Source: a virus (taxonomy: Duplodnaviria > Caudoviricetes). Taken from it: 64,000 nt of DNA. Location of the stretch: positions 32,001 through 96,000 of the IMG/VR virus record IMGVR_UViG_3300037484_000435; one strand, written 5' to 3'. Below are positions 4,853 through 59,355 of this stretch, piece after piece; the stretch's first letter is position 1, and each line of letters starts with the position of its first letter. The notes under the pieces are model-generated. The model was not told the origin of the DNA and did not search any database. It saw only the letters and a list, made by a program, of their open reading frames with translations. A program made the position numbers and the translations under genes.

Positions 4853-5554
4853 ATGGAAGCAAGCCCAAGGCTAATTGAGGCTAATCAAAGGATTGGGAGA
4901 GAGTTAAGGCAGAGGTCCTTAGATAAATACTATGCAGACCCGAATTATTGTTTGAATTGTGGTGAGGTTATCCAAGTAAAGGATAACGAGGTCCCTGCAG
5001 CTACACGATCAAGGAAATTTTGTAGTAGGTCATGTGCGGCACATTGCAACAATCATCTTTACCCCAAGAGAAAAGCTGGCGTGCTTGTAGTCGACTCACA
5101 AGAGGGGACCGTCAGTCGTGTCTGCCGTAAGTGTGGAATCGTATTTGAGGTAGGTCGTTACTCAAGTGGAAAACCTAAGTGGAGGAAACATTGTGACACC
5201 TGTGTCTCAAAAACACGTTCTGAGAAATCACGAGAAATTTGTGAACGAAACGGAACATCTTTACCAAAGCCTGTTGGGGATATGACTAAGAAGGAATTGA
5301 GAGAACATTATGCTTGGCATTTGCATTACAAAACTACGATAGGTAAACACGCAAAGAAAGTTTTTCTTCTAAGCGGACAGGAGAAGGTTTGTAAGAACTG
5401 TGGATTCATTCACGGGGTTCAAATTTGTCACATCAAAGGTATAGCAACTTTTGCAGATGAGTCTTTGGTTTCTGAGATAAATGATGCCTCAAATCTCACC
5501 CCCTTATGCCCAAATTGTCATTGGCTTTTTGACCATGACCTTCTAAAACTTTGA
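4853..5554 (+). CDS. HNH homing endonuclease (family copy 1)
   Basis: N-terminal YC.NCG..I...KFCSRSC zinc motif; C-terminal C..CG...ICHIK...EIN...NL..LCPNCHW.FD. Confidence 0.8.
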   Translation: MEASPRLIEANQRIGRELRQRSLDKYYADPNYCLNCGEVIQVKDNEVPAATRSRKFCSRSCAAHCNNHLYPKRKAGVLVVDSQEGTVSRVCRKCGIVFEVGRYSSGKPKWRKHCDTCVSKTRSEKSREICERNGTSLPKPVGDMTKKELREHYAWHLHYKTTIGKHAKKVFLLSGQEKVCKNCGFIHGVQICHIKGIATFADESLVSEINDASNLTPLCPNCHWLFDHDLLKL

Positions 5555-5564
5555 TAATAGCAGG

Positions 5565-5651
5565 GCGGTAGTAGCTCAGTCAGGCAGAGCACGACTCTTC
5601 CAAAGTCGAGGCGAATAGTTCACGCAGGTTCAAATCCTGTCTACCGCTCCA
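5565..5651 (+). tRNA. tRNA-Gly(TCC) with atypical 15-nt variable arm
   Basis: GCGGTAG/CTACCGC acceptor, U73, CCA; anticodon arm CGACT-CTTCCAA-AGTCG; T-arm GCAGG-TTCAAAT-CCTGT. Confidence 0.88.
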
Positions 5652-15125: not shown

Positions 15126-15201
15126 GGTCCAGTAGCTTAGCTTGGTCTAAAGCGACGTTCTCTAAAAACGTTTATCGTAGGTTCAAATCCTACCTGGATC
15201 A
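15126..15201 (+). tRNA. amber-suppressor tRNA (anticodon CTA)
   Basis: GGTCCAG/CTGGATC acceptor; D-arm GCTT/AAGC; anticodon arm ACGTT-CTCTAAA-AACGT; T-arm GTAGG-TTCAAAT-CCTAC. Confidence 0.85.
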
Positions 15202-16168
15202 CAGGGAAAGGAAGAAAATTAAATATGTCTATCTTGGTAAAGAAAACCGAAATGAAGAGCGATAAGGAAGGAAACTACACTGTGGTTTACAACTTGATGC
15301 CTTTCAAGTGCCCAGAATGTGGGAGTGATATGACAGATAGGGCTTGGGAGCATGCCAAGGGTTATTACGATAGGAATACGGCCTATTCTTGTGATGAGTG
15401 TAGTTGCCAAATACTCACAGAGATGTATAGAAACACTGGGGCGGATAAAAACCTTGTCACATTTGTGTTGAGGTATTTTGAAAAAGCCAAAGCAGAGGGT
15501 TTGGTACAAACCAATGACTGAAAGAGAAATGTTCGAAAAATCACTTGAAAGACCTAGTAATTTTCGTAAGTTGTCCTCTGAGGAACAGTGGGACATTGAC
15601 AAACGTCTAGGAATCCTCGACTGGCAAGGTGAAGGTTTAACTGATGAAGATTGGAAAAGAATTAAGGAACATTACGAATAAATGATTAAACCCATAGCAC
15701 ATAGGCTAGACATAATAGTAAAGGGAATATATTACCATTTCAAAATCTTGATAAGAAAAGAAATGGAAGACACAGATTATATCTGGGTAATTTACTGTCT
15801 GGAGTTAGACCTTGTCACAGCAGCTAAAAACCGTTACCAAGCTTGGCGGGATATGAAGGATGTTGTGAGGGCACACATAGGCTTTGCTATGGAAAATGAC
15901 AACATGAAACACTGTTTTCATTCGGCCCCGCAGGAACTGTGGACAGATTATTTTAAAGCTGTAAGCAGGAAGAGAAAGAGAAATGGATAGTGACTCACCA
16001 GTGTTTACAACTTTAGTGCTACTCTTGCTATTTATTAGCGTAGCCTTATTCCCGATAGAGATGGTAAAGTGGTTTATACTCGGCGTCCTGTTCATCTGGA
16101 CATTCGAAATTTTTGTGTTCACGCTATTACTAATAGGATTTCTTCTAGAAAATAGAAAACAAAATAGT

Positions 16169-25713: not shown

Positions 25714-28026
25714 TGGACTCGTCAGAAATAATTCGGAATCGTCGCAGTAAGAGGGCTAAACGCCGTAAAGCATCTCATCTGAAACAAAAGAAATTAGAGC
25801 ACTATCTCTTTCGTACATGTAAATGGTCTGCTCTTAACGCTCCTGAACATCTAACAGAGATTGCTAGGAAAGACCGTGACCACTACGACGGGGAGAGTCG
25901 TCACATTAGAGAATGGGACCACGCCCACCCAAAGTACGATTGGTTAGTTGCTGAAAAACAAGATGATACTCTGGGCGATCTGAAAAAAGAAATAAACGCT
26001 GTGGGATTGGAGAAGGAAGAAGAAAATGATTCCCGAGATTCAGGCGAACATCTATTGGAGCCCCCTGCTGGAGAAGTGGGTGGCTGAAATTAAAGAACTC
26101 ACGCATGAAGAAACGTGTGTGTTTTACAAGGAGCATGTCGACAGGAATCTGGTACTGTTTGAAGTTTCCAGATTCTTTGCCGAGCAAACAAACACAAATG
26201 CCAGAACTGTATATTAACATTTATTTTACCGATGACGGGTGGGAGGGGGTTATTGTGGAAGACCGTGACGTAGGAGATACAACAGTGTTCCGTTCCACAT
26301 CCCCTAACTACACAGAGGTAGTCCAAGCCATAGCCGAGTTTCTCTTGGGAAAAGTATCATGAAACCTACGCCAGATATATTACGAGATGTCGCCCACGCT
26401 CTTTTAGATTCTCCCAACTTCGGTTCTATGTTAATACTGGGAGCAAGTGTTTATGTGAAACTTCCAGATGGAAGAATAGGTAGAGTAATAGTATCTGTTC
26501 CCAACAAAACCTATCTGAAGAAGCATGGTGTCTATGAGTGGGCAACCAACTATAAGGAAGAAGCATGATAACATATTTTGCGGATATTAAACTTAGAATA
26601 GAAGTGGATGATGGGGCCGACTGCGGGGCAAGAGACCTTAAGAATGAAATTTATAAACACCTTAGCGGGTTTGTTGAGAAACAAGCGAGCATTGAAGGTG
26701 ACGGGACGAAAGTCATCATTGATGTATTAAAAGTTGAAGAATCCAAACACGGGTTTAGGGTGCAAGATACAGACGGTAATTGGACAGAACCTTCTGATGC
26801 TTTTGCTGAGATGGTTAAGAGAGATATCGCAAAAATAAATGCATTTCAGAAGAAAAGGGAAAGATAATGCCCGATGGGCAACCAATTACAAAGATGAAGA
26901 AATACAAAGCAAACATACAATTGACGATTGAGACCGAAGACAACCATGGGTGGGGCAGTGCCCGCCAATTTGAGATTGATTTAGGAAGATGGATAGGAGC
27001 ATGGTGGGAACAATTCGAAGGTTGCGAAGATGATGAATATGTTGGGGGCTCTTTCGACTTAATCAAGGTGAAGGAGATGTGGCGGGACCGAGAATTCATT
27101 CCATGCGACGAGGTTATCTTAAAAAGCGAGGATACACAATGGACCAGCCTAGTGCCAAAGAAGGAATAGCGGCATACATAAACAATATGACGGACGAGGA
27201 ACTGGAAGAGTCTCTCCAACGAGCAGGGATAGACCACTACAAGCACATAAAAATGAAAATTTTTAGCCCGAGCCCCGACTACAGGGGTTTGTGGTATGAC
27301 CTTTACGAGATAGCTTGCGGTCAAGCTCACGTTAACAACCCTTATTTAAAAAACATCATGGAAGAAATGGACCCCAGTATCAACGATGACTTTGAGGAAG
27401 AGTGTGAACCCAAACAATTTGTGAGGCTGGGGAAACGCTGTTGTGGAGCTTATGCCAAGGCCACGGCGGACCCTCTGAATTGTTATGATGAATACTGGGT
27501 TACTTATGACCGACACGGCCAGCAAATTGGGAAAGCAGTTTGTGTCGATTGTGGTAAAGAAACTGACGAGAAATTTACGGACTAATTTCCCCCAAATTTA
27601 CGGGAACCTTTTAATTAACCAAGTGTCTCAATTCACAATGGCTGATTATGAGGTTCCTGACATAGATTTGGGGATACTCAAACAGCAAACCCCATGTGGG
27701 TATCATAATACATCATATCCTTCTTGGTTAGTACCCTCTAACCCAATAAGGTATATTTAAGATATGAAGGGTAAGAAAAAGAAACTACATGTGTGCACGG
27801 AGAAAATCTACCGTGCCGAAGAGTAGATCGATCGACGAAAAAGATTCAAAAGCAGACGACAAAATAAGAATGAATAAACATCAAAAACAAATCTTTTTCT
27901 TACCCAATTTTCGATACAAAAAATTTATTGGATGGCGGTGTCAACAACTTCATCATACAAACTTAAAATTTGAACATGACAAACCTGTTGTTGAGCAAGT
28001 TTCCTCCGATAACAAAATAAGGTAAA

Positions 28027-28851
28027 ATGGCCAAAAGAATTTACGCCGTTAACGACAATTATTTTGATGATTTGAACTCGGAAGGCCCCTCTTATTGGTT
28101 GGGTGTTTTGAGTGCTGATGGCTACGTTTGGGAAAACCGAAACAGCGTGAATCTAACAGTGAAAGAATCCGATCGTGAGTGGTTGGAGATGTACAAGAAG
28201 GCTCTCGGAATAGAAGCACCGATTCTGGAAGGTTATCCTAAGGGATGTATAAGAGTAATTTTTACGTCAGGGCGGATCGTTCAAAATCTGTATCGTTACG
28301 GGATACACCAGAAAAAGTCACTTGATTTATGTTTTTGTCAAGATGTTACAGAACAACAAGTAAGGCATTATATTCGTGGGTTAATAGACGGGGATGGCTC
28401 TCTCACACTCACAAATAGGTCATGTATGATTTCCTTGACAGGAACTGAGGATATTACGTCACGTGTTGCTAGTTATTTGGCAAGGTACACAACAAAGAAT
28501 AGCCAGAAGTTACGCTCAAAAAATTTAGTGCGTAAAAAACACCAAACTAAAAATACTTTTTGTGTAAGTTGGGGTGGGCTACAAAATGTATCGGGAATTA
28601 TAGAACATCTCTATAATAAATCTGATTATTTTCTACTAAGAAAAAAAGAGATTGCACAAAAAATGACTTCTCAAGCAAGTGTTGATATACATAACCAATC
28701 TAGTATGTATTCAGACCTGACGGGGGAAGACTTAATGGATTTTTACAAGGAGCACAAGAGTTGGAGAGGAGTCGCAAGATTTTTAGGTGTGAGACACTGT
28801 GCTTTTATTGATTATAAAATCAAAGTTCTAGGAAGAGAAAAAAGAAAATGA
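28027..28851 (+). CDS. LAGLIDADG homing endonuclease (double motif)
   Basis: YWLGVLSADG and YIRGLIDGDG motifs. Confidence 0.88.
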   Translation: MAKRIYAVNDNYFDDLNSEGPSYWLGVLSADGYVWENRNSVNLTVKESDREWLEMYKKALGIEAPILEGYPKGCIRVIFTSGRIVQNLYRYGIHQKKSLDLCFCQDVTEQQVRHYIRGLIDGDGSLTLTNRSCMISLTGTEDITSRVASYLARYTTKNSQKLRSKNLVRKKHQTKNTFCVSWGGLQNVSGIIEHLYNKSDYFLLRKKEIAQKMTSQASVDIHNQSSMYSDLTGEDLMDFYKEHKSWRGVARFLGVRHCAFIDYKIKVLGREKRK

Positions 28852-28926
28852 CGGATAGCGGTAGTCAAGCGTTACTTCTTACAATTGGTGTAAACACAAA
28901 GCCACGCTGACAATCAACTTCTTCCG
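28851..28926 (+). ncRNA. structured repeat unit 1 (short insert)
   Basis: ACGGA/TCCGT terminal stem; TAGCGGTAG; GTTACTTC; 3' CAATCAACTTCT. Confidence 0.6.
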
Positions 28927-28980
28927 TTTATCCCGCACGTGGCTCCTAAGCGGGTTAACAATTTGGAGTTTAGAGAAATG

Positions 28981-29057
28981 ATGGGTAGCGACAGCGGTCG
29001 GGTTACTTCTATATTATGTAAATATAACCAAAGCACCCCCGCGATACCTTCTCCCAT
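28981..29057 (+). ncRNA. structured repeat unit 2
   Basis: ATGGG/CCCAT stem; TAGCGAC; GGTTACTTC; 3' GATACCTTCT. Confidence 0.6.
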
Positions 29058-29067
29058 TAACAAGAAT

Positions 29068-29213
29068 ACCGAGTAGCGGTAGAGAGGACTTCTTCATTTG
29101 TTTATATCACAAACGGCCTGGGTTCGAGTCCCAGTGGTCACCCCAAAAATCTATGGTGGCCATAGCTCAACTGGTAGAGAAAAAAGTTATGCCTTTCGAT
29201 TCATTCTCTCGGT
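29068..29213 (+). ncRNA. repeat unit 3 with circularly permuted tRNA body (His-like acceptor)
   Basis: ACCGAG/CTCGGT stem; T-arm CTGGG-TTCGAGT-CCCAG (29118-29134), 3' acceptor TGGTCAC-C-CCA, linker, then 5' acceptor (G)GTGGCCA and D-arm TAGCTCAACTGGTAGAG. Confidence 0.75.
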
Positions 29214-29225
29214 AACAAATAGAAT

Positions 29226-29289
29226 TTAGGTGGCGTCGTAAGAGTTACTTCTTGGAAATGAAAAACACTCTTACAACAACTTCCCCTGA
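29226..29289 (+). ncRNA. structured repeat unit 4 (minimal unit)
   Basis: TTAGG/CCTGA outer stem, TGGCGTC, perfect inner stem GTAAGAG/CTCTTAC, TTACTTC, 3' AACAACTTCC. Confidence 0.65.
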
Positions 29290-29325
29290 TTCATAACAAG
29301 TGTGTCACACGAGTGTTCTTTGAAA

Positions 29326-29604
29326 TTTGAGTGGCGTGAACGAGGAGTACTTCTATACTTATAAAGACAAAAGAAGTGACGATCGTAGCTTCAAGGTGCC
29401 CAAAAGGCACGCGACAGAACGATCCGTGAAATAGTTGCACGTAAATAAATGACTCAGGCAAGCACACCTGATAAACGACTCAGACAAGATTTCCATCTGT
29501 ATGAAATTGGAATCTGTGCTAACGACTACCATAAAAATAGTGGTAGCTGATTTCGGCACATAATAAAATGAAATCAGGTCTCCTTATTCAAACATTCCCT
29601 CAAA
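29326..29604 (+). ncRNA. structured repeat unit 5 (large multi-hairpin insert)
   Basis: TTTGA/TCAAA stem, GTGGCGTG, AGTACTTC, 3' AAACATTCCC. Confidence 0.55.
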
Positions 29605-29656
29605 GAAAAGTCCTGAGCAGACTCTAAAATGTTCATTGTGTGTTTCCTTTAAAACT

Positions 29657-29754
29657 GTATCAGCGGTGATCGATTCGGCTACTTCATTTATAAGATGACC
29701 ATCTGGCTTAATTCGCCAGATAACAATAACCGAATCAAATAGCTACCCTGATAC
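29657..29754 (+). ncRNA. structured repeat unit 6
   Basis: GTATCAG/CTGATAC and GATTCGG/CCGAATC stems, CTACTTC, insert hairpin ATCTGGC-TTAATTC-GCCAGAT. Confidence 0.65.
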
Positions 29755-29854
29755 CCAAGAACGAAAAAGGGAGTCTGGTCTGATCAATTGGGCGAACCTG
29801 TGGGTCCTTTTCTGCAGGAGGGACTGCCAGTAAAAAACGAGTGCGTCATTATTA

Positions 29855-29920
29855 GGTTGTGTAGCTCAGTAGGAGAGCGTCTGTAGTGGAAGGTCAAGGG
29901 TGCGAGCCCCTTCACGACCG
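29855..29920 (+). ncRNA. tRNA-like element with shrunken anticodon arm
   Basis: GGTTGTG/CACGACC acceptor, D-arm GCTC-AGTAGGA-GAGC, T-arm AAGGG-TGCGAGC-CCCTT; only 17 nt between D and T arms. Confidence 0.6.
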
Positions 29921-29991
29921 AAAATGCCTATATCTCAGTCAAGTAACTGGCAACACCGCTGTGGTCCTAGCGTAATTTGGCCAAGAACAAA

Positions 29992-30055
29992 TGGGACTGA
30001 CCTTGGCGGTTACGGGGATGGCCATCCGTAGTCGGTTCGATTCCAGACCGTCCCA
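29992..30055 (+). ncRNA. degenerate tRNA-like element
   Basis: TGGGAC/GTCCCA acceptor-like stem, GGTTCGATTCC T-loop, TACGG/CCGTA central stem. Confidence 0.45.
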
Positions 30056-30150
30056 CAAGAAACGAAATGTGTGGAAAAATAATTACCCTCTTAAACAGGG
30101 CCCAATAGGGAAGGAAGACGTTCCTTAATATTAAAACAGTCCACACAGAA

Positions 30151-30260
30151 TATTGAGCGGTGATTTTGAGAGTTACTTCAAACCATGAATCTTGACTACT
30201 GTGGTTCGAGTCCACGTTGACGGGCGGGTGCCCTTTCTCTCATTCAAGCTTCCCTCAATA
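30151..30260 (+). ncRNA. repeat unit 7 with T-arm insert
   Basis: TATTGAG/CTCAATA and TGAGAG/CTCTCA stems, TTACTTC, T-arm GTGG-TTCGAGT-CCAC. Confidence 0.65.
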
Positions 30261-30509
30261 CAAGTAAGTTTCGACGTCAGTCAGTAACTGTCAATAGGAC
30301 TTAATGAGTGCACAAGGTTCTGACTTTCGGAGATAAGGATGGAGTCCCCAGCAACGACGGTTGCCTTGTAACGGGATGTCTGGTCGCAGCGGGAGGCGTA
30401 GTCTCCCCCATCCAACTATATGCCACTTGGTTGCTAGCGTATCTAGCTGAGAACAGCAACGCCCAACTAAGTCCCATAGAGGGATAAAAATTATAATGAA
30501 GGCATTAAA

Positions 30510-30704
30510 CTGGGTCTCAGCCCCCAGTATAAAGAACTGGTTGGGTGGCGGAAGAAAGTAAAGGACACTCAGCCTTTACTACCTCTGGGTCTTAACCCTC
30601 AGGCTAAAGAATTGGTTAAGTGGCGGCGAATAGGGACCTGTGCCAACTCGTCCTGACTTCCTCTGGGTCTCAATTCCCAGGCTAAAGAACTGATTGAGTG
30701 GTGG
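30510..30704 (+). repeat. three 42-nt direct repeats with pseudoknot potential, separated by 33- and 36-nt hairpin spacers
   Basis: repeats at 30510-30551, 30585-30626, 30663-30704; consensus CTGGGTCTyArYyCyCAG.CTAAAGAAyTGrTTrrGTGGyGG. Confidence 0.8.
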
Positions 30705-30825
30705 GGAGGGAAAGCGTTTACCAAAACGCCGCACCCCAGTCTGCTCGACTTAAAGAGCATGGTGCCTTGAAGCCTTGGTTAATTTCCAAAAGAGCAGTAA
30801 GCTTAACAGCAGATGGGCACATTTT

Positions 30826-30930
30826 AATCGAGTGGTGATAAGTGAGGTTACTTCTAAACTAAATTATCATTTTTAAACAAAAAAGATAAAGACCTCGGGA
30901 GATTGCATGATTCAACAATTTCCACCTGTT
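30826..30930 (+). ncRNA. structured repeat unit 8 (boundaries uncertain)
   Basis: GAGTGGTGAT, GAGG-TTACTTC (30846-30854); ACCTC downstream; closing stem unclear. Confidence 0.45.
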
Positions 30931-31153
30931 TACAGGCGTCTACGGTCTGTGCGAGAAACGAGCTTGCTCGGCTAGAGGCACATTAAATAAAGATAGCGCA
31001 GTAATACTTCACTAATGGCTTCCCTCGATATTAAAGCCCCAGACCTGAGTAAGTCAGCAATGAAACTACTCCACCGACAAGAGGCTGTGCTACGATGTAG
31101 GCAGGGTGTAAAACTTCCTCTCTCAAGAAAAATATTACTTTGAAGATAGGTAA

Positions 31154-31960
31154 ATGGGGAAGAGACTCTACACTGTTAATGACAATTATTTTGATGATTT
31201 GAACTCAGAGGGACCATCTTACTGGTTGGGTGTCCTGAGTGCAGATGGGTATATTAGGGGTAACAGTATAAATCTCACTGTCAAAGAAGCTGATATTGAA
31301 TGGCTTACCTTATATAAAGAGGCTTTAGAGATTGAGGCTCCGATCCAAAAAGGACCAAAGGGATGTATTCGCGTCGTCTTTACCTCTAAACGTGTTGCTC
31401 AAAACTTGGTGTCCTACGGACTTGTGCAAAGGAAATCACTAACACTATCATTTTGTAGACAAGTTCCCGTTCCTCAAGTAAAACACTACGTCAGAGGACT
31501 AATAGACGGCGACGGGTCTTTGAGTCTGTCAAGTAAGATAGTCAGAATTGGCCTCACAGGAACCAAAGACATTGTTACATGTACAGACAATTATCTACGC
31601 CAATTTACAACTGCACGGAGCCAATTGAGACGCTCTTCCCGTTCAGTGGGTAAGGAATCTGGTGTTAACAAAGCATTTAGAGTTAATTGGTGTGGACGGC
31701 AAAATGTCGGGCAAATTGTCAAGCATCTCTATAACGAGTCCTCCTACTTTTTAGGTAGAAAGAAAATGTTAGCTGACAAAATAATCAAAGCAAACAAGAA
31801 TACAAAAGAAGGAATTTGTGAACATCTTTCAGAAACTGACCTTAAATCATTGTATTTTGTGCACGGCAGTTGGAGAAAAGTTGCGAGGGAATTGGGTATA
31901 AGTCAAAAAACATTTTCTGATTACAAAATAAAGATGATCGGAAAAGATAAGGTCTGTTAG
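31154..31960 (+). CDS. LAGLIDADG homing endonuclease (paralog of 28027..28851)
   Basis: near-identical N-terminus VNDNYFDDLNSEGPSYWLGVLSADG; YVRGLIDGDG. Confidence 0.88.
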   Translation: MGKRLYTVNDNYFDDLNSEGPSYWLGVLSADGYIRGNSINLTVKEADIEWLTLYKEALEIEAPIQKGPKGCIRVVFTSKRVAQNLVSYGLVQRKSLTLSFCRQVPVPQVKHYVRGLIDGDGSLSLSSKIVRIGLTGTKDIVTCTDNYLRQFTTARSQLRRSSRSVGKESGVNKAFRVNWCGRQNVGQIVKHLYNESSYFLGRKKMLADKIIKANKNTKEGICEHLSETDLKSLYFVHGSWRKVARELGISQKTFSDYKIKMIGKDKVC

Positions 31961-32026
31961 CATAGCGGCTAGTGCGCCACGTTGTCAGCGTGGATTACGT
32001 CGGTTCGAGTCCGATACAGACCGCCA
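31951..32026 (+). tRNA. tRNA-Asp(GTC), overlapping the LAGLIDADG stop codon
   Basis: GGTCTGT/ACAGACC acceptor, G73-CCA; CCACG-TTGTCAG-CGTGG. Confidence 0.93.
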
Positions 32027-32037
32027 AAAGAATTTAG

Positions 32038-32216
32038 CTGAGTGGCGTTACATATAGCTACTTCATAACGGTCCTAAGGTTAGGCTTTGATTGCAAAGCA
32101 CTATTATCGACTGCTAACCTTAATAGGTTAGTTAGGATGGCCGCAAACCCGACGCAATCCGTGTTAGAGGCACGTTAAATAGGGTAGTTCATGCTTTATG
32201 GACAGGCTTCCCTCAG
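32038..32216 (+). ncRNA. structured repeat unit 9 (large insert)
   Basis: CTGAG/CTCAG stem, TGGCGTT, CATATAG/CTTTATG inner stem, CTACTTC, 3' GACAGGCTTCC. Confidence 0.55.
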
Positions 32217-32294
32217 ACACAAGAAAATAAATAACTTACCTCTTACCTAAGTGAGACGAAAGTTTCAAAACACTTATGCAGAGAGGTAAGGAAA

Positions 32295-32903
32295 TTGAAT
32301 ATTAAAAGAGAAGAAGCCTTATCCAGTTATTATAAAGACCCGTCGGTTTGCCAGCATTGTGGGCAAATTATAGGGGTTAAGGATAAGCAAAAAATAAATG
32401 AGGTCAAGAAGAAGAAGTTCTGCGATCGGTCTTGTGCGGCAAAATATAACAACTCTGCTTTTCCAAAGCGAAATCCTACTAAGGTAGTGCTTTGTAAAAA
32501 CTGTGGAAAAGAAGTTAAATTAACACCCCGTTCTAACTCAGTTGGTGGCTACATAAAGAGAGAATTTTGTAATGAGTGTAAACATCTAAACATAGGCAAA
32601 AGCGGGAAGTACTCAGACTTGGGTACGCTGACTAAGGGAGAACTGAAGGAGTTATTCCCAACATCGTGGAGATCACTAATAAGTTACAATGCTAGGTGTG
32701 TATATTTGCCCCGCGGGTTAGAAGAACCAAATTGTTATTTATGTGATTATGATAGTCACGTTGATGTTTGCCACATCAAGGCAGTTTCTAAATTTGGAGC
32801 ATCTGCTAAAATTGAGGAAATCAATTCCCCAGACAATCTAGTCTTTCTATGCCCGAACCATCATTGGGATATGGACCACGGCAAAGTCTGTGTTTTGAAA
32901 TAA
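32295..32903 (+). CDS. HNH homing endonuclease (family copy 4)
   Basis: YYKDPSVCQHCG..KKFCDRSC; CYLCDY..VDVCHIK...LCPNHHWDMD. Confidence 0.8.
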   Translation: MNIKREEALSSYYKDPSVCQHCGQIIGVKDKQKINEVKKKKFCDRSCAAKYNNSAFPKRNPTKVVLCKNCGKEVKLTPRSNSVGGYIKREFCNECKHLNIGKSGKYSDLGTLTKGELKELFPTSWRSLISYNARCVYLPRGLEEPNCYLCDYDSHVDVCHIKAVSKFGASAKIEEINSPDNLVFLCPNHHWDMDHGKVCVLK

Positions 32904-32979
32904 TTTAGCGTTGCACTCCTGTAAGTAATTCGTGAGAGAATATCTAGGGTGCTATTTGGCAACGCGGTAGCACCACTAC

Positions 32980-33089
32980 GGGACGGTAGTTGCTATGAAA
33001 GAACATCTCTTGATTAGGGAAGAAATTAGTTCTAGACAAAGAACATCTCTAAAGGAGAAGAAAGTGTGGTTTAATTCCCATACGTCCCA
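32980..33089 (+). ncRNA. tRNA-like element with expanded centre
   Basis: GGGACG/CGTCCC acceptor-like stem, T-like hairpin GTGTGG-TTTAATTC-CCATAC, centre contains AAGAACATCTCT twice. Confidence 0.4.
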
Positions 33090-33365
33090 CAAGTTACGTA
33101 CTCGGTTACGAACTGGCGGAAGGGCTAATTATTGCAGATCGCGAAATCTCTGTGTATTAATTAGTCTCTAGAGACAATGGCCAGCAAACCACCTCTAGCG
33201 TCTTGTCGGTACGACGTAAAACAATCCGAAGCGGTTACGGTGTTCACTGATAACTTGGTTTGGTCCCAGTTTCTATTCCACAAAAACTCGGGGGTTTACT
33301 GCTTAACCAAAAACAGCGGGGATTTCGGTTGTGTTTATCCAGAAAAACACACCGCGCAATAATAC

Positions 33366-33516
33366 TTACGTAGCGGTGAATGAAGGGTTACTTCAAAGTA
33401 AACAGTCCCGAAAGGGTGCAGGTATCGAATCCTGCCGTTCTGTAATAGGAACGTGGCGGAAGTGGTTTAAATAGACGCACTGTAGTATCAACCTTTCAAA
33501 TAGCTTCCCTATGTAA
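33366..33516 (+). ncRNA. repeat unit 10 with permuted Leu-type tRNA body
   Basis: TTACGTAG/CTATGTAA stem, GGTTACTTC, ACAGT/ACTGT anticodon-stem equivalent, V-arm CCC-GAAA-GGG, T-arm GCAGG/CCTGC, acceptor hairpin CGTTC/GAACG, Leu-like D-arm TGGCGGAA...TAGACGC. Confidence 0.75.
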
Positions 33517-33526
33517 CAAGAATCTT

Positions 33527-33624
33527 TTGTGGTGGCGGTGGTTAAGGATTTCTTCTAAAAGTGCCTTGGAAAAGCACAGGAGGTGTAAGAGATTTCCATA
33601 TGCCTTACCGAATTATCCCCACAA
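33527..33624 (+). ncRNA. structured repeat unit 11
   Basis: TTGTGG/CCACAA stem, TGGCGGTG, TAAGG/CCTTA inner stem, ATTTCTTC. Confidence 0.6.
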
Positions 33625-33632
33625 TACAGAAA

Positions 33633-33772
33633 TTTCATGGCGGCGTCAGTAATCGGTTACTTCCTCGTTTAAAGGTGTGGTCACAGGTTCGAGTCCTGTC
33701 GCGGTCCCAGCGGATCGTGTAGCTCAGTTGGCAGAGCACATTGTTACCGTTACACCCAGTTACCCCATGAAA
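33633..33772 (+). ncRNA. repeat unit 12 with permuted tRNA body
   Basis: TTTCATGG/CCATGAAA stem, GGTTACTTC, T-arm ACAGG-TTCGAGT-CCTGT, acceptor CGCGGTCC-CAGC-GGATCGTG, D-arm TAGCTCAGTTGGCAGAGC. Confidence 0.78.
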
Positions 33773-33952
33773 CAAATCAGACGGCGTTTAAAATCATCTC
33801 CTAGGGAAACCTAGGAACGCCGACCAGTTTGGGAAAAGGTTCGTGGCCAGAATACCATTGCAAGACAGGGACGAAGTGATGGGTAAGAAGCTGGAATGTT
33901 GGATATTAGAAAGAGTCCCCCAACATGCTTCACCTTTTCCTAATAAAAATAA

Positions 33953-34111
33953 ACTAGGCAGCGGCAGAGATGGATACTTCATAGGAACCGCCGTCCTGAA
34001 ATACGGACATGTAGGTGCAAGTCCTACCTGCTCCCCAACATCTATGGGAGCAGTGGTGAAATTAGTATACACAGCGGTAAGTAAGACACCTTCTCAAACT
34101 TTTCTCCTAGT
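33953..34111 (+). ncRNA. repeat unit 13 with permuted Leu-type tRNA body
   Basis: ACTAGG/CCTAGT stem, GATACTTC, CCGC/GCGG, V-arm GTCC/GGAC, T-arm GTAGG-TGCAAGT-CCTAC, acceptor CTGCTCCC/GGGAGCAG, D-arm TGGTGAAATTAGTATACAC. Confidence 0.78.
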
Positions 34112-34189
34112 AACAAGAAATCTGCGGAGACGTATTGCCTCTAAACCAAGGTAGGGAACGTTTGCTCCTAAGCCTTGGGCAGATAGAAA

Positions 34190-34340
34190 TATTGAGTGGC
34201 GATAGAAAGGATTTCTTCATCCAATCTTTCGGTCGTAGGTTCGAGTCCTACTGCTCCTTCGTTGTTTACAGCGTGGGGAGTGTAGCTCAGTTGGCAGAGC
34301 AAAAGACAATAATAGTGCCTTTCGATTTTTACCCTCAATA
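34190..34340 (+). ncRNA. repeat unit 14 with permuted tRNA body
   Basis: TATTGA/TCAATA and GAAAGG/CCTTTC stems, ATTTCTTC, TCTTT/AAAGA, T-arm GTAGG-TTCGAGT-CCTAC, extended acceptor hairpin, D-arm TAGCTCAGTTGGCAGAGC. Confidence 0.78.
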
Positions 34341-34579
34341 ACACTAGCGGGTCACTTCAGCCTGTTATCGACCCGCTCAACCAAAACATAATGGGCTCGC
34401 TCGGCCACAGAGCGATAGAATAGTGGCGATTTAGCTTTTATTTTTTTAGACAAATGGCTAGGACTAAATGGGCATACGCTACCGCTCCTGATTCTCGATG
34501 GAGGACATAAGGGTGCCATTGCGAGCTTTGACAAAAGCAAAGCCAAGAGGTAGTAGTTCTAGCCACAAGATAAATCAGT

Positions 34580-34654
34580 GATCCCATCGTCTAGAGGCCA
34601 GGATACATGGTTCTCAGCCATGAGACAGGAGTTCAAATCTCCTTGGGATTGCCA
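34580..34654 (+). tRNA. tRNA-Glu(CTC)
   Basis: CATGG-TTCTCAG-CCATG; G73-CCA. Confidence 0.92.
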
Positions 34655-34663
34655 AAAAAGATG

Positions 34664-34781
34664 AAGGCGTAGCGACCGAATGGGTTACATCAATGGTTAA
34701 TAAACAATCCTAATAAGACTGTTTTAAACGGTTCGAATCCGTGCTCGCAAGAGCTATACCTGTTCAATATATTCTCGCCTT
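34664..34781 (+). ncRNA. repeat unit 15 with T-arm and mini acceptor hairpin
   Basis: AAGGCG/CGCCTT stem, TAGCGACC, GGTTACATC, ACGG-TTCGAAT-CCGT, GCTC-GCAA-GAGC. Confidence 0.62.
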
Positions 34782-35096
34782 TTTAAATGAACCATTAGAA
34801 ATTGCCTCTGACCGTCCGAGCGTTTCGACGGGCCAACGGGATGACGAGGCAGAATTGTGGAATTACATCATTAGGCTACGACCTCACCGCCGGTCAGAAA
34901 TTCTATCTACACACCTAACCACGATATAGAATTACTGAACCAGCGGAGACGACAGCCGCCTAAAGATTCCATTTTGTAATGGTTACAACAAGAAAAATAG
35001 ATGCATTAAGGAGTGGGTTATAACTTTGTTATAACGATTCCCTCCCGCTCACTAACGAGCAGGTAAATATTTCCCCTTAAAAGGAGGCACAACATT

Positions 35097-36683
35097 ATGG
35101 CTAGATTCAACGTAACACCGGAAAATCCCCGTAAGACTGTCAATCATGAAGGAGCTTTGGCTTGGAGCATGACAGATGATATGCGTCTGTATGCGACCGC
35201 CGCCACCTCAACCCTGTCAGGCAAGTTCTATGAGCCCGCCAGCCCAACAGAACGTGTGAAGGGTCGAAGAGGTCGTAGCTATGGCTCTAGTGACTACGAC
35301 AAGAAAGCTGAGATGGAGAGGGTAAAGAAAATCATAGCGATGTGCGACAAATGTTCTCCAGACTTTGTTGCAAACCTCGCTGAGTACATTCGTTCAGATA
35401 TGTACCTGCGTAGCGTTCCTATGGTTATGCTTGTATCCTTGGCTCAACGCGGGGCCCTCAAGCGACAGAGTGTGTCTAGGGTCGTTCAGCGTCCGGACGA
35501 AATCACGGAGCTGCTCGCCATCTGGCAGGCAGTAAGTGGTAGGTCCGCATTGAAGAAAATGCCTAACGCCTTGAAGAAAGGTATTGGTGATTGCTTCAAT
35601 AAGTTCGACGCTTACGGCTTCAGGAAATATAACCGAGGCGGAAAAGGTGCTGTAACGTTCCTCGATGCAATGAGGCTTACGCACCCGTCTCCCAGGTCTG
35701 AAGAGCAGAACGCAACATTCCAAGCGATCAAGGATGGAACACTTCCTCCTATTGAAACTTGGGAAACCATGATTTCTGCGGCGGGCCCAGATGCGGACGC
35801 TAAAAGGAAAGCATGGGAACACCTGATCGATCAGGGTGCCAAGGGTCTTCCCTACATGGCTGCTCTGAGGAATATCAGGAACATCTTGCAGGCTGGCGTC
35901 AGCGGAGCACATATGCAGAAGCTGGTAGCCGAGTTGACGGACCCGAATCTGATTGCGAAAAGCAAGCAGTTCCCGTTCCGTTGGCACTCCGCCTACAAAA
36001 TGTTGCGTGAGGAGCTCCAGAAGATGGGTAGTCCTTATTTCAAGGCAGTCATGGACGCTTGTGAAAAGGCTATCGTGTCCTCAGTTGTGAACATTCCCGG
36101 TTTCGATGAGATTCAGGATAAGAGGTTCCTGATTGCATGCGACACTTCTGGGTCTATGCAGGACCTATTCTCCACGAACTCCACGGTAAAGCGTTACGAG
36201 ATCGCACTGACGTTGGGGCTTTTGCTTCAGCAGAAGTTAAATTTCGTTACGATTGGTGCTTTTGGAGAGACGTGGAAAGTGTATCCCCCTTCTCCTGTGG
36301 TCTTGTCTGCTGTTGGAACAACGGTAGGTAAGATTGGTGAAGTGGGTCACGCAACCAACGGATACAAAGTTATCAAGTGGGCAAGAGACACGAAGACAGT
36401 CTACGACTACATCGTGCTGTTCTCTGACTTGCAACTTTGGAATTCCCACAGCATGGGTAACAGCCCAGAGACCTTCAGCTCGGAATGGGAACAGTATAAA
36501 CGAGATGTCAACCGAGATGCTCGCTTGGTGCTCTTTGACCTCGCTGGCTACGGCACGACTCCCGTTGATGCTGTGCGTAAGGACGTCTTCCTGATTGCTG
36601 GCTTCTCTGAGAAGATATTCCAAGTTCTTCCAAAGCTGGCTGAAGGACAGAAGTTCTTGCAGCAGTTCCATCGTCCTGTTTAG
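35097..36683 (+). CDS. Ro60/Rsr ortholog (TROVE domain plus VWA)
   Basis: TVNHEGA, LAEYIRSDMYLRSVP, VQRPDEITELL, KGIGDCFNKFDAYGFRKY, LTHP, ETWE, LPYMAALRNIRNI, SKQFPFRW..AY, IACDTSGSM; AGGAGG RBS. Confidence 0.93.
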   Translation: MARFNVTPENPRKTVNHEGALAWSMTDDMRLYATAATSTLSGKFYEPASPTERVKGRRGRSYGSSDYDKKAEMERVKKIIAMCDKCSPDFVANLAEYIRSDMYLRSVPMVMLVSLAQRGALKRQSVSRVVQRPDEITELLAIWQAVSGRSALKKMPNALKKGIGDCFNKFDAYGFRKYNRGGKGAVTFLDAMRLTHPSPRSEEQNATFQAIKDGTLPPIETWETMISAAGPDADAKRKAWEHLIDQGAKGLPYMAALRNIRNILQAGVSGAHMQKLVAELTDPNLIAKSKQFPFRWHSAYKMLREELQKMGSPYFKAVMDACEKAIVSSVVNIPGFDEIQDKRFLIACDTSGSMQDLFSTNSTVKRYEIALTLGLLLQQKLNFVTIGAFGETWKVYPPSPVVLSAVGTTVGKIGEVGHATNGYKVIKWARDTKTVYDYIVLFSDLQLWNSHSMGNSPETFSSEWEQYKRDVNRDARLVLFDLAGYGTTPVDAVRKDVFLIAGFSEKIFQVLPKLAEGQKFLQQFHRPV

Positions 36684-36988: not shown

Positions 36989-37777
36989 ATGTCAAACTAT
37001 GAAAATTACACGAAAAGGAAAAGTAGTATGTCAGATAATAAAGTAGTGAGTCTGTTAGACGCATTCACGTGGATTCTCACGCTGGTGGGATTCGGTAAAG
37101 GTATTGGTGCAGTGTTATCACAGATAGCCGCGACGACTGTCACAGAGGCCAAGACGGCAAGCGAAGCAGTGCTGAACGCCCTTGCAGCCGGTAAGGACGT
37201 TATCGCGGAAATGTGTTCCAACGACTTCAAAAGTTGGATTAACCTGTGTATGAGTGAGTTCATACAAGAGGCTCAATCAAAAGGTTGGACCGTACGAAAA
37301 ATTATGAGGGAGCTCAACAAGGTAGTTGGTAAGCAACACGCTCTTGATGGGAAACTCTTGGAGGCTCTGGTAATCATAGCACTAGCTCAGTTCCTAGGAA
37401 AAGAGAACCTAGTGTTCAGCACCCAAACTATCACTGGTTCTAGATTGGGTGGACACACGGATGTCGAGGTAGCTATCGGTGACGGTCGCTTCTTGCTTGA
37501 GCCCAAGTCCTTCTTGGGTGTCGACTGGAAGCGAGCTATAATCGAGCACGCCGTACAGAACGACAAGGGAGAGACTGTGCAGCAGCCGTTCTTCCTTATC
37601 ACCCCTTCAGTGAGCTTGAAGGCACAGTGGGTTGAGGAAATGAAAAACCTCAACTGCCAGCCTGTCTCGATCTCTCCTTCAGTAATTGACGGTGTAATAC
37701 ACCTAGACGCATTAGTAGCAGCTCTGAAGAAAGAGATAGACCGAGTTGCGGAACAAAAGAAGAACCTGACTGTCTAA
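36989..37777 (+). CDS. hypothetical protein, possible PD-(D/E)xK nuclease fold
   Basis: TDVEVAIGDGRFLLEPK resembles D...(D/E)xK spacing. Confidence 0.4.
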   Translation: MSNYENYTKRKSSMSDNKVVSLLDAFTWILTLVGFGKGIGAVLSQIAATTVTEAKTASEAVLNALAAGKDVIAEMCSNDFKSWINLCMSEFIQEAQSKGWTVRKIMRELNKVVGKQHALDGKLLEALVIIALAQFLGKENLVFSTQTITGSRLGGHTDVEVAIGDGRFLLEPKSFLGVDWKRAIIEHAVQNDKGETVQQPFFLITPSVSLKAQWVEEMKNLNCQPVSISPSVIDGVIHLDALVAALKKEIDRVAEQKKNLTV

Positions 37778-58859: not shown

Positions 58860-59355
58860 CTTCCCCCAATTCAAAGAAGATTTTGGGCAAAATCTGCTTA
58901 GCCCGAAACCATCTGAGAAAATAATAGAATGGCAAAAGGCTGGTCTTCTAAAGCGGTATATCCAGCCATTAGATAAATGTGTAGGAGTATTACAAGATAC
59001 AAAGTTTCATGTTGACGATGTATTTCAACATTGCATAAAGACATGCGATAACGTGCCTCCCATCTTGAGTCTAAGGTGGGCAGGGCTGTTACATGATACA
59101 GGAAAGGTGCCAACACGAGGTCATCACATACTATGTGGTTTAACCTATCCAAAGGAAAAGAAGGTTGTTTCATATTGTCGACGTAAAAAGAAGAGATGTT
59201 CCGCCAAATGTGAACATGCTATTGAGCGAATAACATTCTACAAACACGAGCTGGCTAGTGAGAAACTAGCAAAGGCAGTGCTAAAGATGTTTAAGGTGGA
59301 CCCTCAAGTATATGCAGAGGCAATGGGCCTGATCGCGAACCATATGTATATGTAT
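58860..59355 (+). CDS. exon 2: HD-domain segment resembling CCA-adding/poly(A) polymerase C-terminal region; 496 nt, one base out of register
   Basis: LLSPKPS.., GLL..YI..LD.C.GV.Q..K.H..DVF.H, WAGLLHDTGK, FYKHE..S, LIANHM. Confidence 0.7.

What the first reader, a model, noticed from the sequence alone, without database searches (positions are those of the whole stretch)
28851..36683. Array of 15 scaffold-sharing structured RNAs upstream of a phage Ro60 (TROVE) gene: candidate expanded Y-RNA-like system
Seen: between 28.85 and 34.8 kb there is no credible coding other than two endonuclease genes. Fifteen units share one architecture: outer stem (5-8 bp, sequence differs but pairing is kept), RGCG-containing internal loop, inner stem, conserved (G/A)NT(A/T)CTTC, variable insert of about 16-230 nt, inner stem 3' strand, an ...(C/T)T(T/A)C(C/T) loop strand, outer stem 3' strand. 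Compensatory changes across units (e.g. GTAAGAG/CTCTTAC, GATTCGG/CCGAATC, TGAGAG/CTCTCA, GAAAGG/CCTTTC) indicate selection on RNA structure. Established: bacterial Ro60 (Rsr) binds Y RNAs encoded next to it, which combine a Ro-binding stem with an effector, often tRNA-like, module; usually only one or a few per locus. Inference: the scaffold is the Ro60-binding module and the inserts are a library of interchangeable effector or decoy domains. I do not recognise this as a named RNA family.
Basis: partly seen in the sequence, partly recalled or inferred. Interest (0 to 1): 0.95.

Follow-up and report, generated by a model that had tools for sequence, protein, structure and literature searches.

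The report
Sixteen Y-RNA genes beside phage Ro60
A 545-kb phage carries 16 different small-RNA genes of the Y RNA type in a row upstream of its Ro60 gene, three or more times as many as in any of about 170 other Ro60 loci checked outside its own clade, so a known two-part RNA-protein system has here grown into a gene family.

Summary

**The units are one family.**
- A covariance model trained on 8 units recovered the other 8 with exact boundaries.
- It hit nothing else in the 545-kb genome.
- The two scaffold helices pair in 93% of cells, against 42-53% when the partner columns are slid.

**The Y RNA reading is supported.**
- The same model hits next to Ro60 genes in 80 viral loci (112 of 112 hits on the Ro60 strand) and 80 bacterial loci (63 of 64).
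- It also hits beside Ro60 in Bacillus phage G and Caulobacter phage CcrPW.
- Its hits enclose weak Rfam YrlA matches.
- The scaffold is therefore the general bacterial and phage Y RNA stem, not an unnamed family.

**What is new is the scale and the variety of inserts.**
- This phage has 16 units and a related 658-kb phage has 21, against at most about 6 elsewhere.
- No two inserts within a genome are alike.

Contigs from a sediment metatranscriptome, from a close relative, lie almost only on the RNA genes. One is a closed 280-nt cycle equal to one unit.

Ro60 binding and function remain inferred. Other first-stage readers of this scan noted the same array before.

The parts
27927..28010 (+). 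Unit U0, short-hairpin insert.
   Evidence: R2 58.8 bits; training member; descriptor scan.
28027..28851 (+). LAGLIDADG homing endonuclease ORF lying between U0 and U1.
   Evidence: Pfam LAGLIDADG_3 5e-9.
28850..28928 (+). Unit U1, short insert.
   Evidence: R2 60.8 bits.
28980..29058 (+). Unit U2, short insert.
   Evidence: R2 67 bits.
29068..29213 (+). Unit U3, full tRNA-like insert (variable hairpin, T arm, acceptor-like stem, D arm).
   Evidence: R2 40.7 bits, not in training; Rfam YrlA 18 bits; fold; ortholog V1 in L003 at 76%.
29225..29290 (+). Unit U4, shortest insert.
   Evidence: R2 56 bits.
29326..29604 (+). Unit U5, 230-nt multi-hairpin insert.
   Evidence: R2 22.9 bits, not in training. 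Metatranscriptome contig forms a closed 280-nt cycle joining 29606 to 29326.
29658..29753 (+). Unit U6, two-hairpin insert.
   Evidence: R2 68.6 bits; ortholog V5.
30152..30259 (+). Unit U7, T arm plus one hairpin, no D arm.
   Evidence: R2 54.4 bits; fold.
30827..31029 (+). Unit U8, 157-nt insert.
   Evidence: R2 37.9 bits, not in training. Precisely absent from a relative's contig, which joins 30817 to 31029.
31154..31960 (+). LAGLIDADG-like endonuclease ORF.
   Evidence: Pfam LAGLIDADG_3 8.5e-5 and HTH_50.
32037..32217 (+). Unit U9, long insert.
   Evidence: R2 20.6 bits, not in training; partial ortholog V10.
32295..32903 (+). HNH endonuclease ORF.
   Evidence: Pfam HNH_2 8.5e-8.
33368..33514 (+). 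Unit U10, tRNA-like insert with a long D-like loop.
   Evidence: R2 33 bits, not in training; ortholog V13 at 75%.
33527..33624 (+). Unit U11, short insert.
   Evidence: R2 50.4 bits; ortholog V12.
33635..33770 (+). Unit U12, full tRNA-like insert.
   Evidence: R2 25.6 bits, not in training; Rfam YrlA 38.2 bits, E 8.5e-6.
33953..34111 (+). Unit U13, tRNA-like insert.
   Evidence: R2 27.8 bits, not in training; ortholog V15 at 80% with compensatory changes.
34191..34339 (+). Unit U14, full tRNA-like insert.
   Evidence: R2 34.8 bits, not in training; Rfam YrlA 38.8 bits, E 5.7e-6. In ortholog V16 the acceptor-like stem is replaced but still pairs.
34664..34781 (+). Unit U15, T arm plus hairpin; the unit nearest to Ro60.
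   Evidence: R2 78.9 bits.
35097..36683 (+). Ro60 gene (TROVE ring plus vWA domain; the vWA-domain DxSxS residues D349, S351 and S353, which match the MIDAS pattern, are invariant).
   Evidence: Pfam; PDB 9KOP/9L5Y 4.3e-22, 2NVO 1.3e-6; invariant columns.
31951..32026 (+). tRNA-Asp(GUC) inside the array, same strand.
   Evidence: ARAGORN; Rfam 58.7 bits.
34580..34654 (+). tRNA-Glu(CUC) inside the array, same strand.
   Evidence: ARAGORN; Rfam 54.3 bits.

Best explanation
These are 16 paralogous genes for Y RNA-type small RNAs of the YrlA/YrlB class, encoded on the Ro60 strand within 7.2 kb upstream of the phage Ro60 gene.

Each RNA closes with the same module:
- a 6-8 bp stem formed by its own 5' and 3' ends;
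- a one-base pyrimidine bulge;
- two more pairs (RG:CY);
- an asymmetric internal loop with an invariant G on the 5' side and a U on the 3' side;
- a 5-9 bp inner stem;
- an invariant single-stranded U(A/U)CUUC.

Shown here: the module is conserved and covaries, and the same module occurs beside Ro60 genes in unrelated phages and bacteria.

Inferred by homology with characterised Ro60-Y RNA pairs: the module is the Ro60 docking site, and the variable insert decides what the particle does or meets.

The inserts fall into four groups:
- five complete tRNA mimics without an anticodon loop;
- two with a T arm plus one hairpin;
- six short hairpins;
- three long multi-hairpin inserts.

The units are probably transcribed together with the interspersed tRNAs and cut out at the base of the terminal stem. 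This too is inferred, from the 7-13 nt A-rich AACAAGAA-type linkers, the absence of + strand terminators, and one metatranscriptome junction.

The most likely role is RNA quality control or repair of the phage's large tRNA set during infection, using host exonucleases, since the phage has no PNPase.
For: - Family and boundaries.
- Covariation.
- Invariant unpaired letters.
- The neighbouring gene is Ro60.
- Linkage to Ro60 across loci: in 80 viral loci all 112 hits at E <= 1 are on the Ro60 strand and nearly all within about 2 kb; in 80 bacterial loci 63 of 64 are.
- Cultured phages: 5 units in the gap just upstream of the TROVE gene gp540 of Bacillus phage G (7 hits in the 17-kb locus), 6 weaker ones upstream of Ro60 in CcrPW, 2 in a crAss-like phage.
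- Overlap with Rfam YrlA matches.
- A third pair type in Bacteroidota (GU:AC at the two post-bulge pairs) extends the covariation.
- The array is conserved with turnover: L003 has 21 units and L006 has 2. Seven or eight units are orthologous at 70-80%. Six pairs match over most of their length and two only partly. Substitutions are fewer in the consensus-predicted stems (4-23 in 48-82 paired columns) than in unpaired columns (14-38 in 48-92).
- No two units in one genome share an insert.
- Expression hint: metatranscriptome X3 contigs fall on ncRNA territory. I took 13 of 15 from the tool's tables, which list only part of the contigs; by chance P is about 5e-6. None lies on the Ro60 ORF.
- RNA-repair context: RtcB and a CCA-adding-type enzyme are present elsewhere in the genome, and no RNase PH/PNPase domain.
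Against: - No unit reaches the Rfam YrlA gathering score (69 bits; best 38.8).
- The exact published GNCGAAN0-1G motif is absent from all 16 units.
- Only 5 of 16 units carry the defining tRNA-like domain.
- Binding to Ro60 is not tested.
- The alignments used for covariation were fitted to the model, which inflates pairing somewhat.
- The RNA evidence comes from one run, from contigs only, and from a relative 90-95% alike. One X3 contig also lies on a coding ORF (37145-37386), so DNA carry-over is not excluded.
- U0 lies 7.1 kb from Ro60, beyond the 4 kb used in PMC4201824.
Confidence: 0.82

Rival explanations
1. The tRNA-like units act mainly on their own, as competitive inhibitors or decoys for host enzymes that attack tRNAs. 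Ro60 is only a stabilising chaperone, or irrelevant.
For: - Five units mimic the tRNA elbow and acceptor but have no anticodon loop to be cut.
- The array sits in a tRNA island with 22 tRNA genes.
- The genome carries RtcB and a CCA-adding-type enzyme.
Against: - Nine of 16 units lack a full tRNA mimic yet keep the scaffold and its invariant unpaired letters.
- The scaffold tracks Ro60 genes across phyla.
Confidence: 0.1
2. The units are tRNA-derived processing or punctuation elements of a long tRNA precursor, or decayed permuted tRNA genes. Their position next to Ro60 is a coincidence.
For: - tRNAs and a tRNA-like gene are interspersed on the same strand.
- Linkers between units are short and A-rich.
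- ARAGORN calls a false tRNA inside U3.
Against: - The other 40-plus kb of the tRNA island, and the rest of the genome, have no R2 hits.
- The same scaffold lies by Ro60 in bacteria where no tRNA cluster was detected in the 20 loci scanned, apart from L114.
- Strand and distance bias: 112 of 112 and 63 of 64 hits on the Ro60 strand.
Confidence: 0.04
3. The units are a selfish repeat family (MITE-like, or spread with the homing endonucleases) with no RNA function.
For: - Three homing endonuclease ORFs lie inside the array.
- Unit content differs between related phages, and U8 is absent with exact boundaries in a relative.
Against: - There are no near-identical copies: inserts are all different within a genome.
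- Pairing is kept by compensatory change while the sequence diverges.
- Orientation is strictly one strand.
- Units are confined to one locus.
Confidence: 0.03

Closest known systems
YrlA / YrlB Y RNAs of bacteria (Rfam RF02553; Chen et al. 2014, PMC4201824)
   Same: - Encoded next to Ro60 on the same strand.
- 5' and 3' ends pair into a stem that carries a GNCG-type motif.
- A YUAY-type motif follows the second stem (UUAC here).
- T arm, acceptor-like stem and D arm come in permuted order, with no anticodon loop, in 5 units. The short units resemble YrlB.
- Weak RF02553 matches, like those of Bacteroidota Ro60 loci.
   Different: - 16 genes instead of the one or two (YrlA and YrlB, Yrn1 and Yrn2) described per species in the Chen 2014 text read here.
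- All score below the Rfam gathering score.
- The AA of GNCGAA is not kept.
- Three units carry 150-230 nt inserts of unknown fold.
Thermus phage phiLo Ro60 with Yrl1 and Yrl2 (PMC12135203; PDB 9KOP, 9L5Y)
   Same: - A phage-encoded Ro60 with Y-like RNAs just upstream.
- It is the closest solved structure to this protein (E 4.3e-22).
- The paper reports that the phage protein binds its RNAs and host PNPase.
   Different: - Two RNAs there, 16 here.
- phiLo is a small phage with no tRNA island.
- I did not test the phiLo RNAs against model R2.
Ro60 loci of cultured large phages: Bacillus phage G, Caulobacter phage CcrPW (Colossusvirus), Arthrobacter phage Atuin
   Same: - Ro60 sits in or beside a tRNA island.
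- Several R2-type units lie directly upstream on the same strand: phage G has 5 in the 1-kb gap before gp540 plus 2 more, and CcrPW has 6 weaker hits.
   Different: - Five to seven units at most.
- None of these units is among the features listed for the GenBank records.
- Ro60 is under 32% identical.
Metazoan Y RNAs (hY1-hY5, Xenopus Y3)
   Same: By recall plus PMC4201824 and PMC12135203: a terminal stem made by both ends, a single bulged pyrimidine, two further pairs, an asymmetric internal loop, then a second stem. Ro60 reads the 5' strand of that helix.
   Different: - No Rfam Y_RNA match.
- Different loop sequences.
- Animal Y RNAs have no tRNA-like module.

Membership tests
Bacterial Y RNA, YrlA type (PMC4201824; Rfam RF02553) | Encoded near a Ro60/TROVE gene (within about 4 kb) on the same strand. 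| tested here: met
   All 16 units are on the Ro60 strand. U8-U15 lie within about 4.3 kb upstream of the gene; U0-U7 extend to 7.2 kb as one uninterrupted array.
Bacterial Y RNA, YrlA type (PMC4201824; Rfam RF02553) | GNCGAAN0-1G motif near the 5' end. | tested here: not met
   The exact motif is in 0 of 16 units and 1 of 39. A related core R-G-Y-G is at the same place. In the 39 units it is G in 27 and A in 12, then G in 39, then C in 33 and T in 6, then G in 39. The AA is not conserved.
Bacterial Y RNA, YrlA type (PMC4201824; Rfam RF02553) | YUAY motif after the second stem. | tested here: met
   A YUAY match occurs in 11 of 16 units. The wider U(A/U)C(A/U)UC is in 16 of 16, and in all 39 when a C is allowed at the fifth letter.
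Bacterial Y RNA, YrlA type (PMC4201824; Rfam RF02553) | tRNA-like domain: T arm, acceptor-like stem, D arm, no anticodon loop. | tested here: inconclusive
   Complete in U3, U10, U12, U13 and U14. T arm plus hairpin only in U7 and U15. Absent in 9 units, which resemble YrlB-type short Y RNAs.
Bacterial Y RNA, YrlA type (PMC4201824; Rfam RF02553) | Score at or above the Rfam gathering threshold (69 bits). | tested here: not met
   Best scores are 38.8, 38.2 and 18 bits. Ro60-adjacent RNAs of Hymenobacter, Chitinophaga and others, and of phage G and Gordonia phage Neville, also score only 31-51 bits.
Bacterial Y RNA, YrlA type (PMC4201824; Rfam RF02553) | Bound by Ro60 in vivo or in vitro. | not testable with these tools
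   No tool offered here models protein-RNA binding. Needs EMSA or immunoprecipitation.
tRNA (RF00005) | Cloverleaf with an anticodon arm, in canonical order. | tested here: not met
   No unit matches RF00005 even at E <= 10. ARAGORN's tRNA-Tyr(ata) at 29073-29145 lies inside U3 and is a miscall of the permuted tRNA-like insert.
Ro60 protein family (for ORF 35097-36683) | TROVE HEAT-repeat ring plus a C-terminal vWA domain with a MIDAS motif. | tested here: met
   Pfam TROVE 80.1 bits and vWA_Ro60 37.8 bits, both over their cut-offs. PDB relatives. The vWA-domain DxSxS residues (D349, S351, S353), which match the MIDAS pattern, are invariant in 17 homologs.

The most novel reading that the evidence does not exclude
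A clade of 0.5-0.66 Mb phages has turned the Ro60-Y RNA pair into a multi-adaptor system. One Ro60 ring is served by 16-21 different Y RNAs, each with its own cargo domain. At least some of these are closed into circles after excision, perhaps by the phage's RtcB ligase. This would let the phage direct RNA surveillance or repair to many targets, or block many host tRNA-directed defences at once.
Probability: 0.2. Interest if true: 0.85.

Novelty: new variant of a known kind. Interest (0 to 1): 0.62.

Why it matters
Y RNAs are thought to act as adaptors that decide what Ro60 touches. In the systems read about here (PMC4201824, PMC12135203) a locus has only one or two of them, which makes the adaptor idea hard to test.

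Here a single Ro60 comes with 16 natural variants that share the docking module and differ only in cargo. A sister phage carries 21, partly orthologous. That amounts to a ready-made comparison set:
- which cargo binds which partner;
- whether tRNA mimicry is needed;
- what the invariant UACUUC contacts.

The covariance model built here also finds unannotated Y RNA-type genes next to Ro60 in cultured phages (phage G, CcrPW, a crAss-like phage) and in Bacteroidota, where Rfam's threshold misses them. Annotation could therefore be improved broadly.

The head-to-tail contig, if it reflects real RNA, would for the first time link Y RNAs to RNA ligation. That could help explain why Ro60, Y RNAs and RtcB share an operon in Salmonella (PMC7790460).

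Tried and rejected
- **Loose structural descriptor.** A descriptor without the UACUUC motif gave as many hits on the - strand and outside the array. I dropped it for a covariance model.
- **MAFFT on whole units.** It misaligned the 3' halves. Four units trimmed to six-base arms aligned correctly.
- **Megablast of the locus against GenBank phages.** No match.
- **Single-protein scan of IMG/VR.** No relative. The alignment-based scan worked.
- **Three close contigs (P0001, P0005, P0006).** Listed without DNA.
- **Rfam at gathering scores.** No YrlA either here or in 20 Bacteroidota loci.
- **Promoter and terminator scan.** No enrichment: 21 against 16.6 promoter-like sites and 7 against 9.9 terminator-like sites. 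The sigma-70 consensus may not fit the host.
- **Papers not held.** The Wolin reviews PMC10870794 and PMC6047535, and the supplement tables of PMC4201824, are not in the library. I could not check how many Y RNAs per phage were already listed.
- **Bulge-helix-bulge splice motif.** Considered as a reading of the scaffold and rejected, because the geometry is one bulged base and two pairs, not 3-4-3.
- **Pseudoknot repeats as permuted scaffolds.** Considered for the three repeats at 30510-30740. R2 does not hit them and the partner CC is not where it would need to be, so this is left open.

Full report
**Setting.** The window is bases 32001-96000 of a 545,322-bp IMG/VR virus record rated complete. 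Most of window 5-50 kb is an island of RNA genes. ARAGORN finds 22 tRNAs, and Rfam finds group II intron domains near 56-61 kb. ORF 35097-36683 is a Ro60 protein. Pfam finds TROVE at 2.6e-22 and the Ro60 vWA domain at 2.3e-9. The nearest solved structures are Thermus phage phiLo Ro60 (4.3e-22), Deinococcus Rsr and Xenopus Ro60.

I then built a covariance model in two rounds:
- R1 came from four short units with a structure I wrote by hand. It found four more full-length units at E 9e-6 to 0.014.
- R2 came from those eight units. With filters off over the window it found exactly 16 hits at E <= 0.043. All are on the + strand and all lie between 27927 and 34781. The next hit scores 11.9 bits (E 2.8).
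- The eight units that R2 had never seen (U3, U5, U8, U9, U10, U12, U13, U14) were returned with the same ends I had marked by hand, despite inserts of 95-230 nt.
- In the whole genome, nothing outside the array matches at E <= 1.

**Covariation.**
- On the 16 units, 93.3% of cells in the 15 scaffold pairs are standard pairs. Fourteen of the 15 pairs change on both sides. There are 72 double changes against 20.5 +/- 3.9 in shuffles. Sliding the partner by 1-3 columns drops pairing to 42-53%.
- Adding 21 units from a related phage and 2 from another gives the same picture: 93.0% paired and 185 against 56 double changes.
- These alignments were fitted to the model, which favours pairing. The slid controls and the recovery of untrained units argue that the signal is real.
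The first is G:C in 27 units and A:U in 12, and never unpaired. In Bacteroidota relatives the second pair is U:A instead of G:C.
- Several unpaired positions are invariant in all 39 units: the last G of RGYG, and U, C and the final C of U(A/U)CUUC. A 3'-strand U is kept in 38 of 39. That is what one expects of protein or tertiary contacts.

**What is it?** Three lines tie the scaffold to Ro60.

1. *Relatives within the clade.* Proteins 80% and 77% identical to this Ro60 exist on other contigs.
   - The locus from the 658-kb phage (L003) has 21 R2 units in the 7.7 kb upstream of its Ro60.
   - A 13-kb contig (L006) has 2 units in the 624 nt available.
   - Seven or eight units are orthologous between the two large phages at 70-80% identity, and the others are unique to one.
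   - In orthologous pairs, substitutions are fewer in the consensus-predicted stems than in unpaired columns. No pair of the consensus structure is broken, which is partly by construction. In U14 and V16 the acceptor-like stem has a different length and sequence, yet still pairs.
   - Within one genome no two units share an insert. These are old, distinct genes, not recent duplicates.

2. *Distant loci.*
   - R2 run over 80 IMG/VR loci centred on Ro60 genes of 28-45% identity gave 112 hits at E <= 1. All are on the Ro60 strand and nearly all lie within about 2 kb.
   - Over 80 bacterial loci, mostly Bacteroidota, it gave 64 hits, 63 on the Ro60 strand and mostly just downstream.
   - Cultured phages show the same. 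Five units lie in the gap before the TROVE gene of Bacillus phage G, plus two more nearby. Six weaker hits lie in the intergenic kilobase before Ro60 of Caulobacter phage CcrPW. There are two in a crAss-like phage and several in Arthrobacter phage Atuin.

3. *The named family.*
   - Rfam YrlA matches U14, U12 and U3 at 38.8, 38.2 and 18 bits, below its 69-bit threshold.
   - Ro60-adjacent RNAs in Hymenobacter, Chitinophaga and others, and in phage G and Gordonia phage Neville, score in the same 31-51 bit range.
   - Where both models hit, the R2 match encloses the YrlA match: L100 5292-5419 around 5303-5416, L155 4624-4754 around 4641-4747, and phage G 5480-5635 around 5520-5606.
   - Chen et al. 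(PMC4201824) defined YrlA by adjacency to Ro60, a GNCGAA-type motif near the 5' end, a YUAY motif, and T and D stem-loops with an acceptor-like stem between them. They reported it in 254 bacteria and 22 phages.
   - Here the RGYG core sits where GNCG sits and UUAC is the YUAY. Five units have the full tRNA-like domain.

The units are therefore divergent members of the bacterial Y RNA class. The short ones resemble YrlB.

**How unusual is the array?**
- With default filters, no other viral locus among the 80 had more than 5 R2 hits, and no bacterial locus more than 3. Rfam adds a few more per bacterial locus.
- With filters off, phage G gave 7 and CcrPW gave 6.
- This phage has 16 and its relative has 21.
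- The counts are not fully comparable, because filters differed. The search on the phage's own genome, which is not run with filters off, still found 12.

**How it most likely works.**
- *Shown:* a conserved, covarying closing module; diverse inserts; a single orientation; tight packing; linkage to Ro60.
- *Packing:* six of the fifteen gaps between neighbouring units are only 7-13 nt long and are AACAAGAA-like linkers. There are no + strand terminators in the array.
- *Inferred from characterised systems (PMC4201824, PMC12135203):* Ro60 docks on the bulged helix, chiefly on its 5' strand. The insert tethers or gates.
- *Genome context:* the phage encodes RtcB and a CCA-adding-type enzyme far from this locus, but no RNase PH or PNPase domain. 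Any exonuclease partner would have to come from the host, as proposed for phiLo.

**RNA evidence.**
- No RNA run holds the locus itself.
- A sediment metatranscriptome (X3) holds contigs 90-95% alike, which means a close relative.
- The listed contigs lie almost entirely on unit and tRNA territory. None lies on the 1.6-kb Ro60 ORF or on the endonuclease ORFs. One lies on a coding ORF (37145-37386).
- I counted 13 of 15 contigs on RNA-gene territory from the tool's tables, which show only part of them. By chance that placement has P of about 5e-6. It fits stable small RNAs better than DNA carry-over, but these are contigs from a single run.
- One 310-nt contig is a circular permutation of U5: 29471-29606, then the 5' start of a U5 ortholog, then 29360-29500.
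- Its first and last 30 bases are identical. I read this as the k-1 overlap left by a 31-mer assembler on a closed cycle of about 280 nt; the word size and that behaviour are from my own recollection, not from a tool output.
- The junction joins two bases past the outer stem to the first base of the outer stem.
- That maps the ends of a discrete RNA to the base of the stem, as in Y RNAs. It could mean a circular RNA, template switching between abundant molecules, or tandem identical DNA copies in the relative.
- A second cycle of about 196 nt contains U7 plus extra sequence and does not match unit ends, so the circle idea stays a lead.
- Another contig skips U8 exactly, joining 30817 to 31029. 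Units are therefore gained or lost as whole modules.

**Verdict.** It is wrong in calling the RNA unnamed. It is a new variant of a known kind, the largest Y RNA gene family I could find, with unusually diverse cargo, conserved in a clade of very large phages. Binding and function are untested. Other first-stage notes of this scan describe the same stretch; they were leads, not evidence.

Noticed in passing
window 30510-30740 (and L003 6113-6218): Three tandem repeats of about 75 nt. Each can fold as an H-type pseudoknot (S1 5/5 pairs, S2 7/7 pairs, with S2 different in each copy but always pairing). Each is followed by T-GG(C/T)G-G and a copy-specific hairpin. One copy is conserved in the related phage, and a relative's contig has one copy instead of three. 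R2 does not hit them. Their relation to the Y scaffold is unclear.
   Followed up: partly
window 29855-29920: A tRNA-like gene inside the array. Rfam tRNA scores 45.2 bits, with normal acceptor, D and T arms but only 7 nt where the model expects 13 in the anticodon arm. It is probably another tRNA mimic rather than a decoding tRNA.
   Followed up: partly
window 29073-29145: ARAGORN's 'tRNA-Tyr (ata)' is a miscall. It lies inside unit U3 and picks up the permuted T arm of its tRNA-like insert.
   Followed up: yes
window 29326-29606; 30109-30263: Metatranscriptome X3 contigs form closed cycles with 30-nt terminal overlap. One, of about 280 nt, equals unit U5 with its ends joined at the base of the outer stem. 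The other, of about 196 nt, contains U7 plus extra sequence. This could be circular RNA, template switching or tandem DNA copies; I could not tell which.
   Followed up: partly
window 34389-34579, 33835-33952, 33276-33364, 33030-33093: Non-coding blocks between units that are 76-82% identical to the related phage's array (L003) but match neither R2 nor Rfam. They may be further small RNAs or processing signals.
   Followed up: no
window 29930-30058 and 30260-30480: Further structured-looking non-coding stretches. One has a GGTTCGATTCC T-arm-like hairpin. They match no Rfam family and are not called by ARAGORN.
   Followed up: no
L169 (Bacillus phage G, 6957-7633), L172 (Caulobacter phage CcrPW, 2766-3956), L170 (crAss-like cr111_1, 4890-5326): Cultured or reference phages carry several unannotated R2-type Y RNA units directly upstream of their TROVE genes. 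In phage G, Atuin and Neville the Ro60 gene sits inside a tRNA island, as it does here.
   Followed up: partly
window 15126-15202; 56685-61486: A tRNA with anticodon CUA (an amber suppressor, called 'Pyl' by ARAGORN) and two group II introns (Rfam domain matches) elsewhere in the window.
   Followed up: no
G000:C1:473977-475053 and 480894-481271: The phage encodes an RtcB RNA ligase and a CCA-adding-type nucleotidyltransferase about 400 kb from the Ro60 locus. No RNase PH or PNPase domain was found in the genome.
   Followed up: partly
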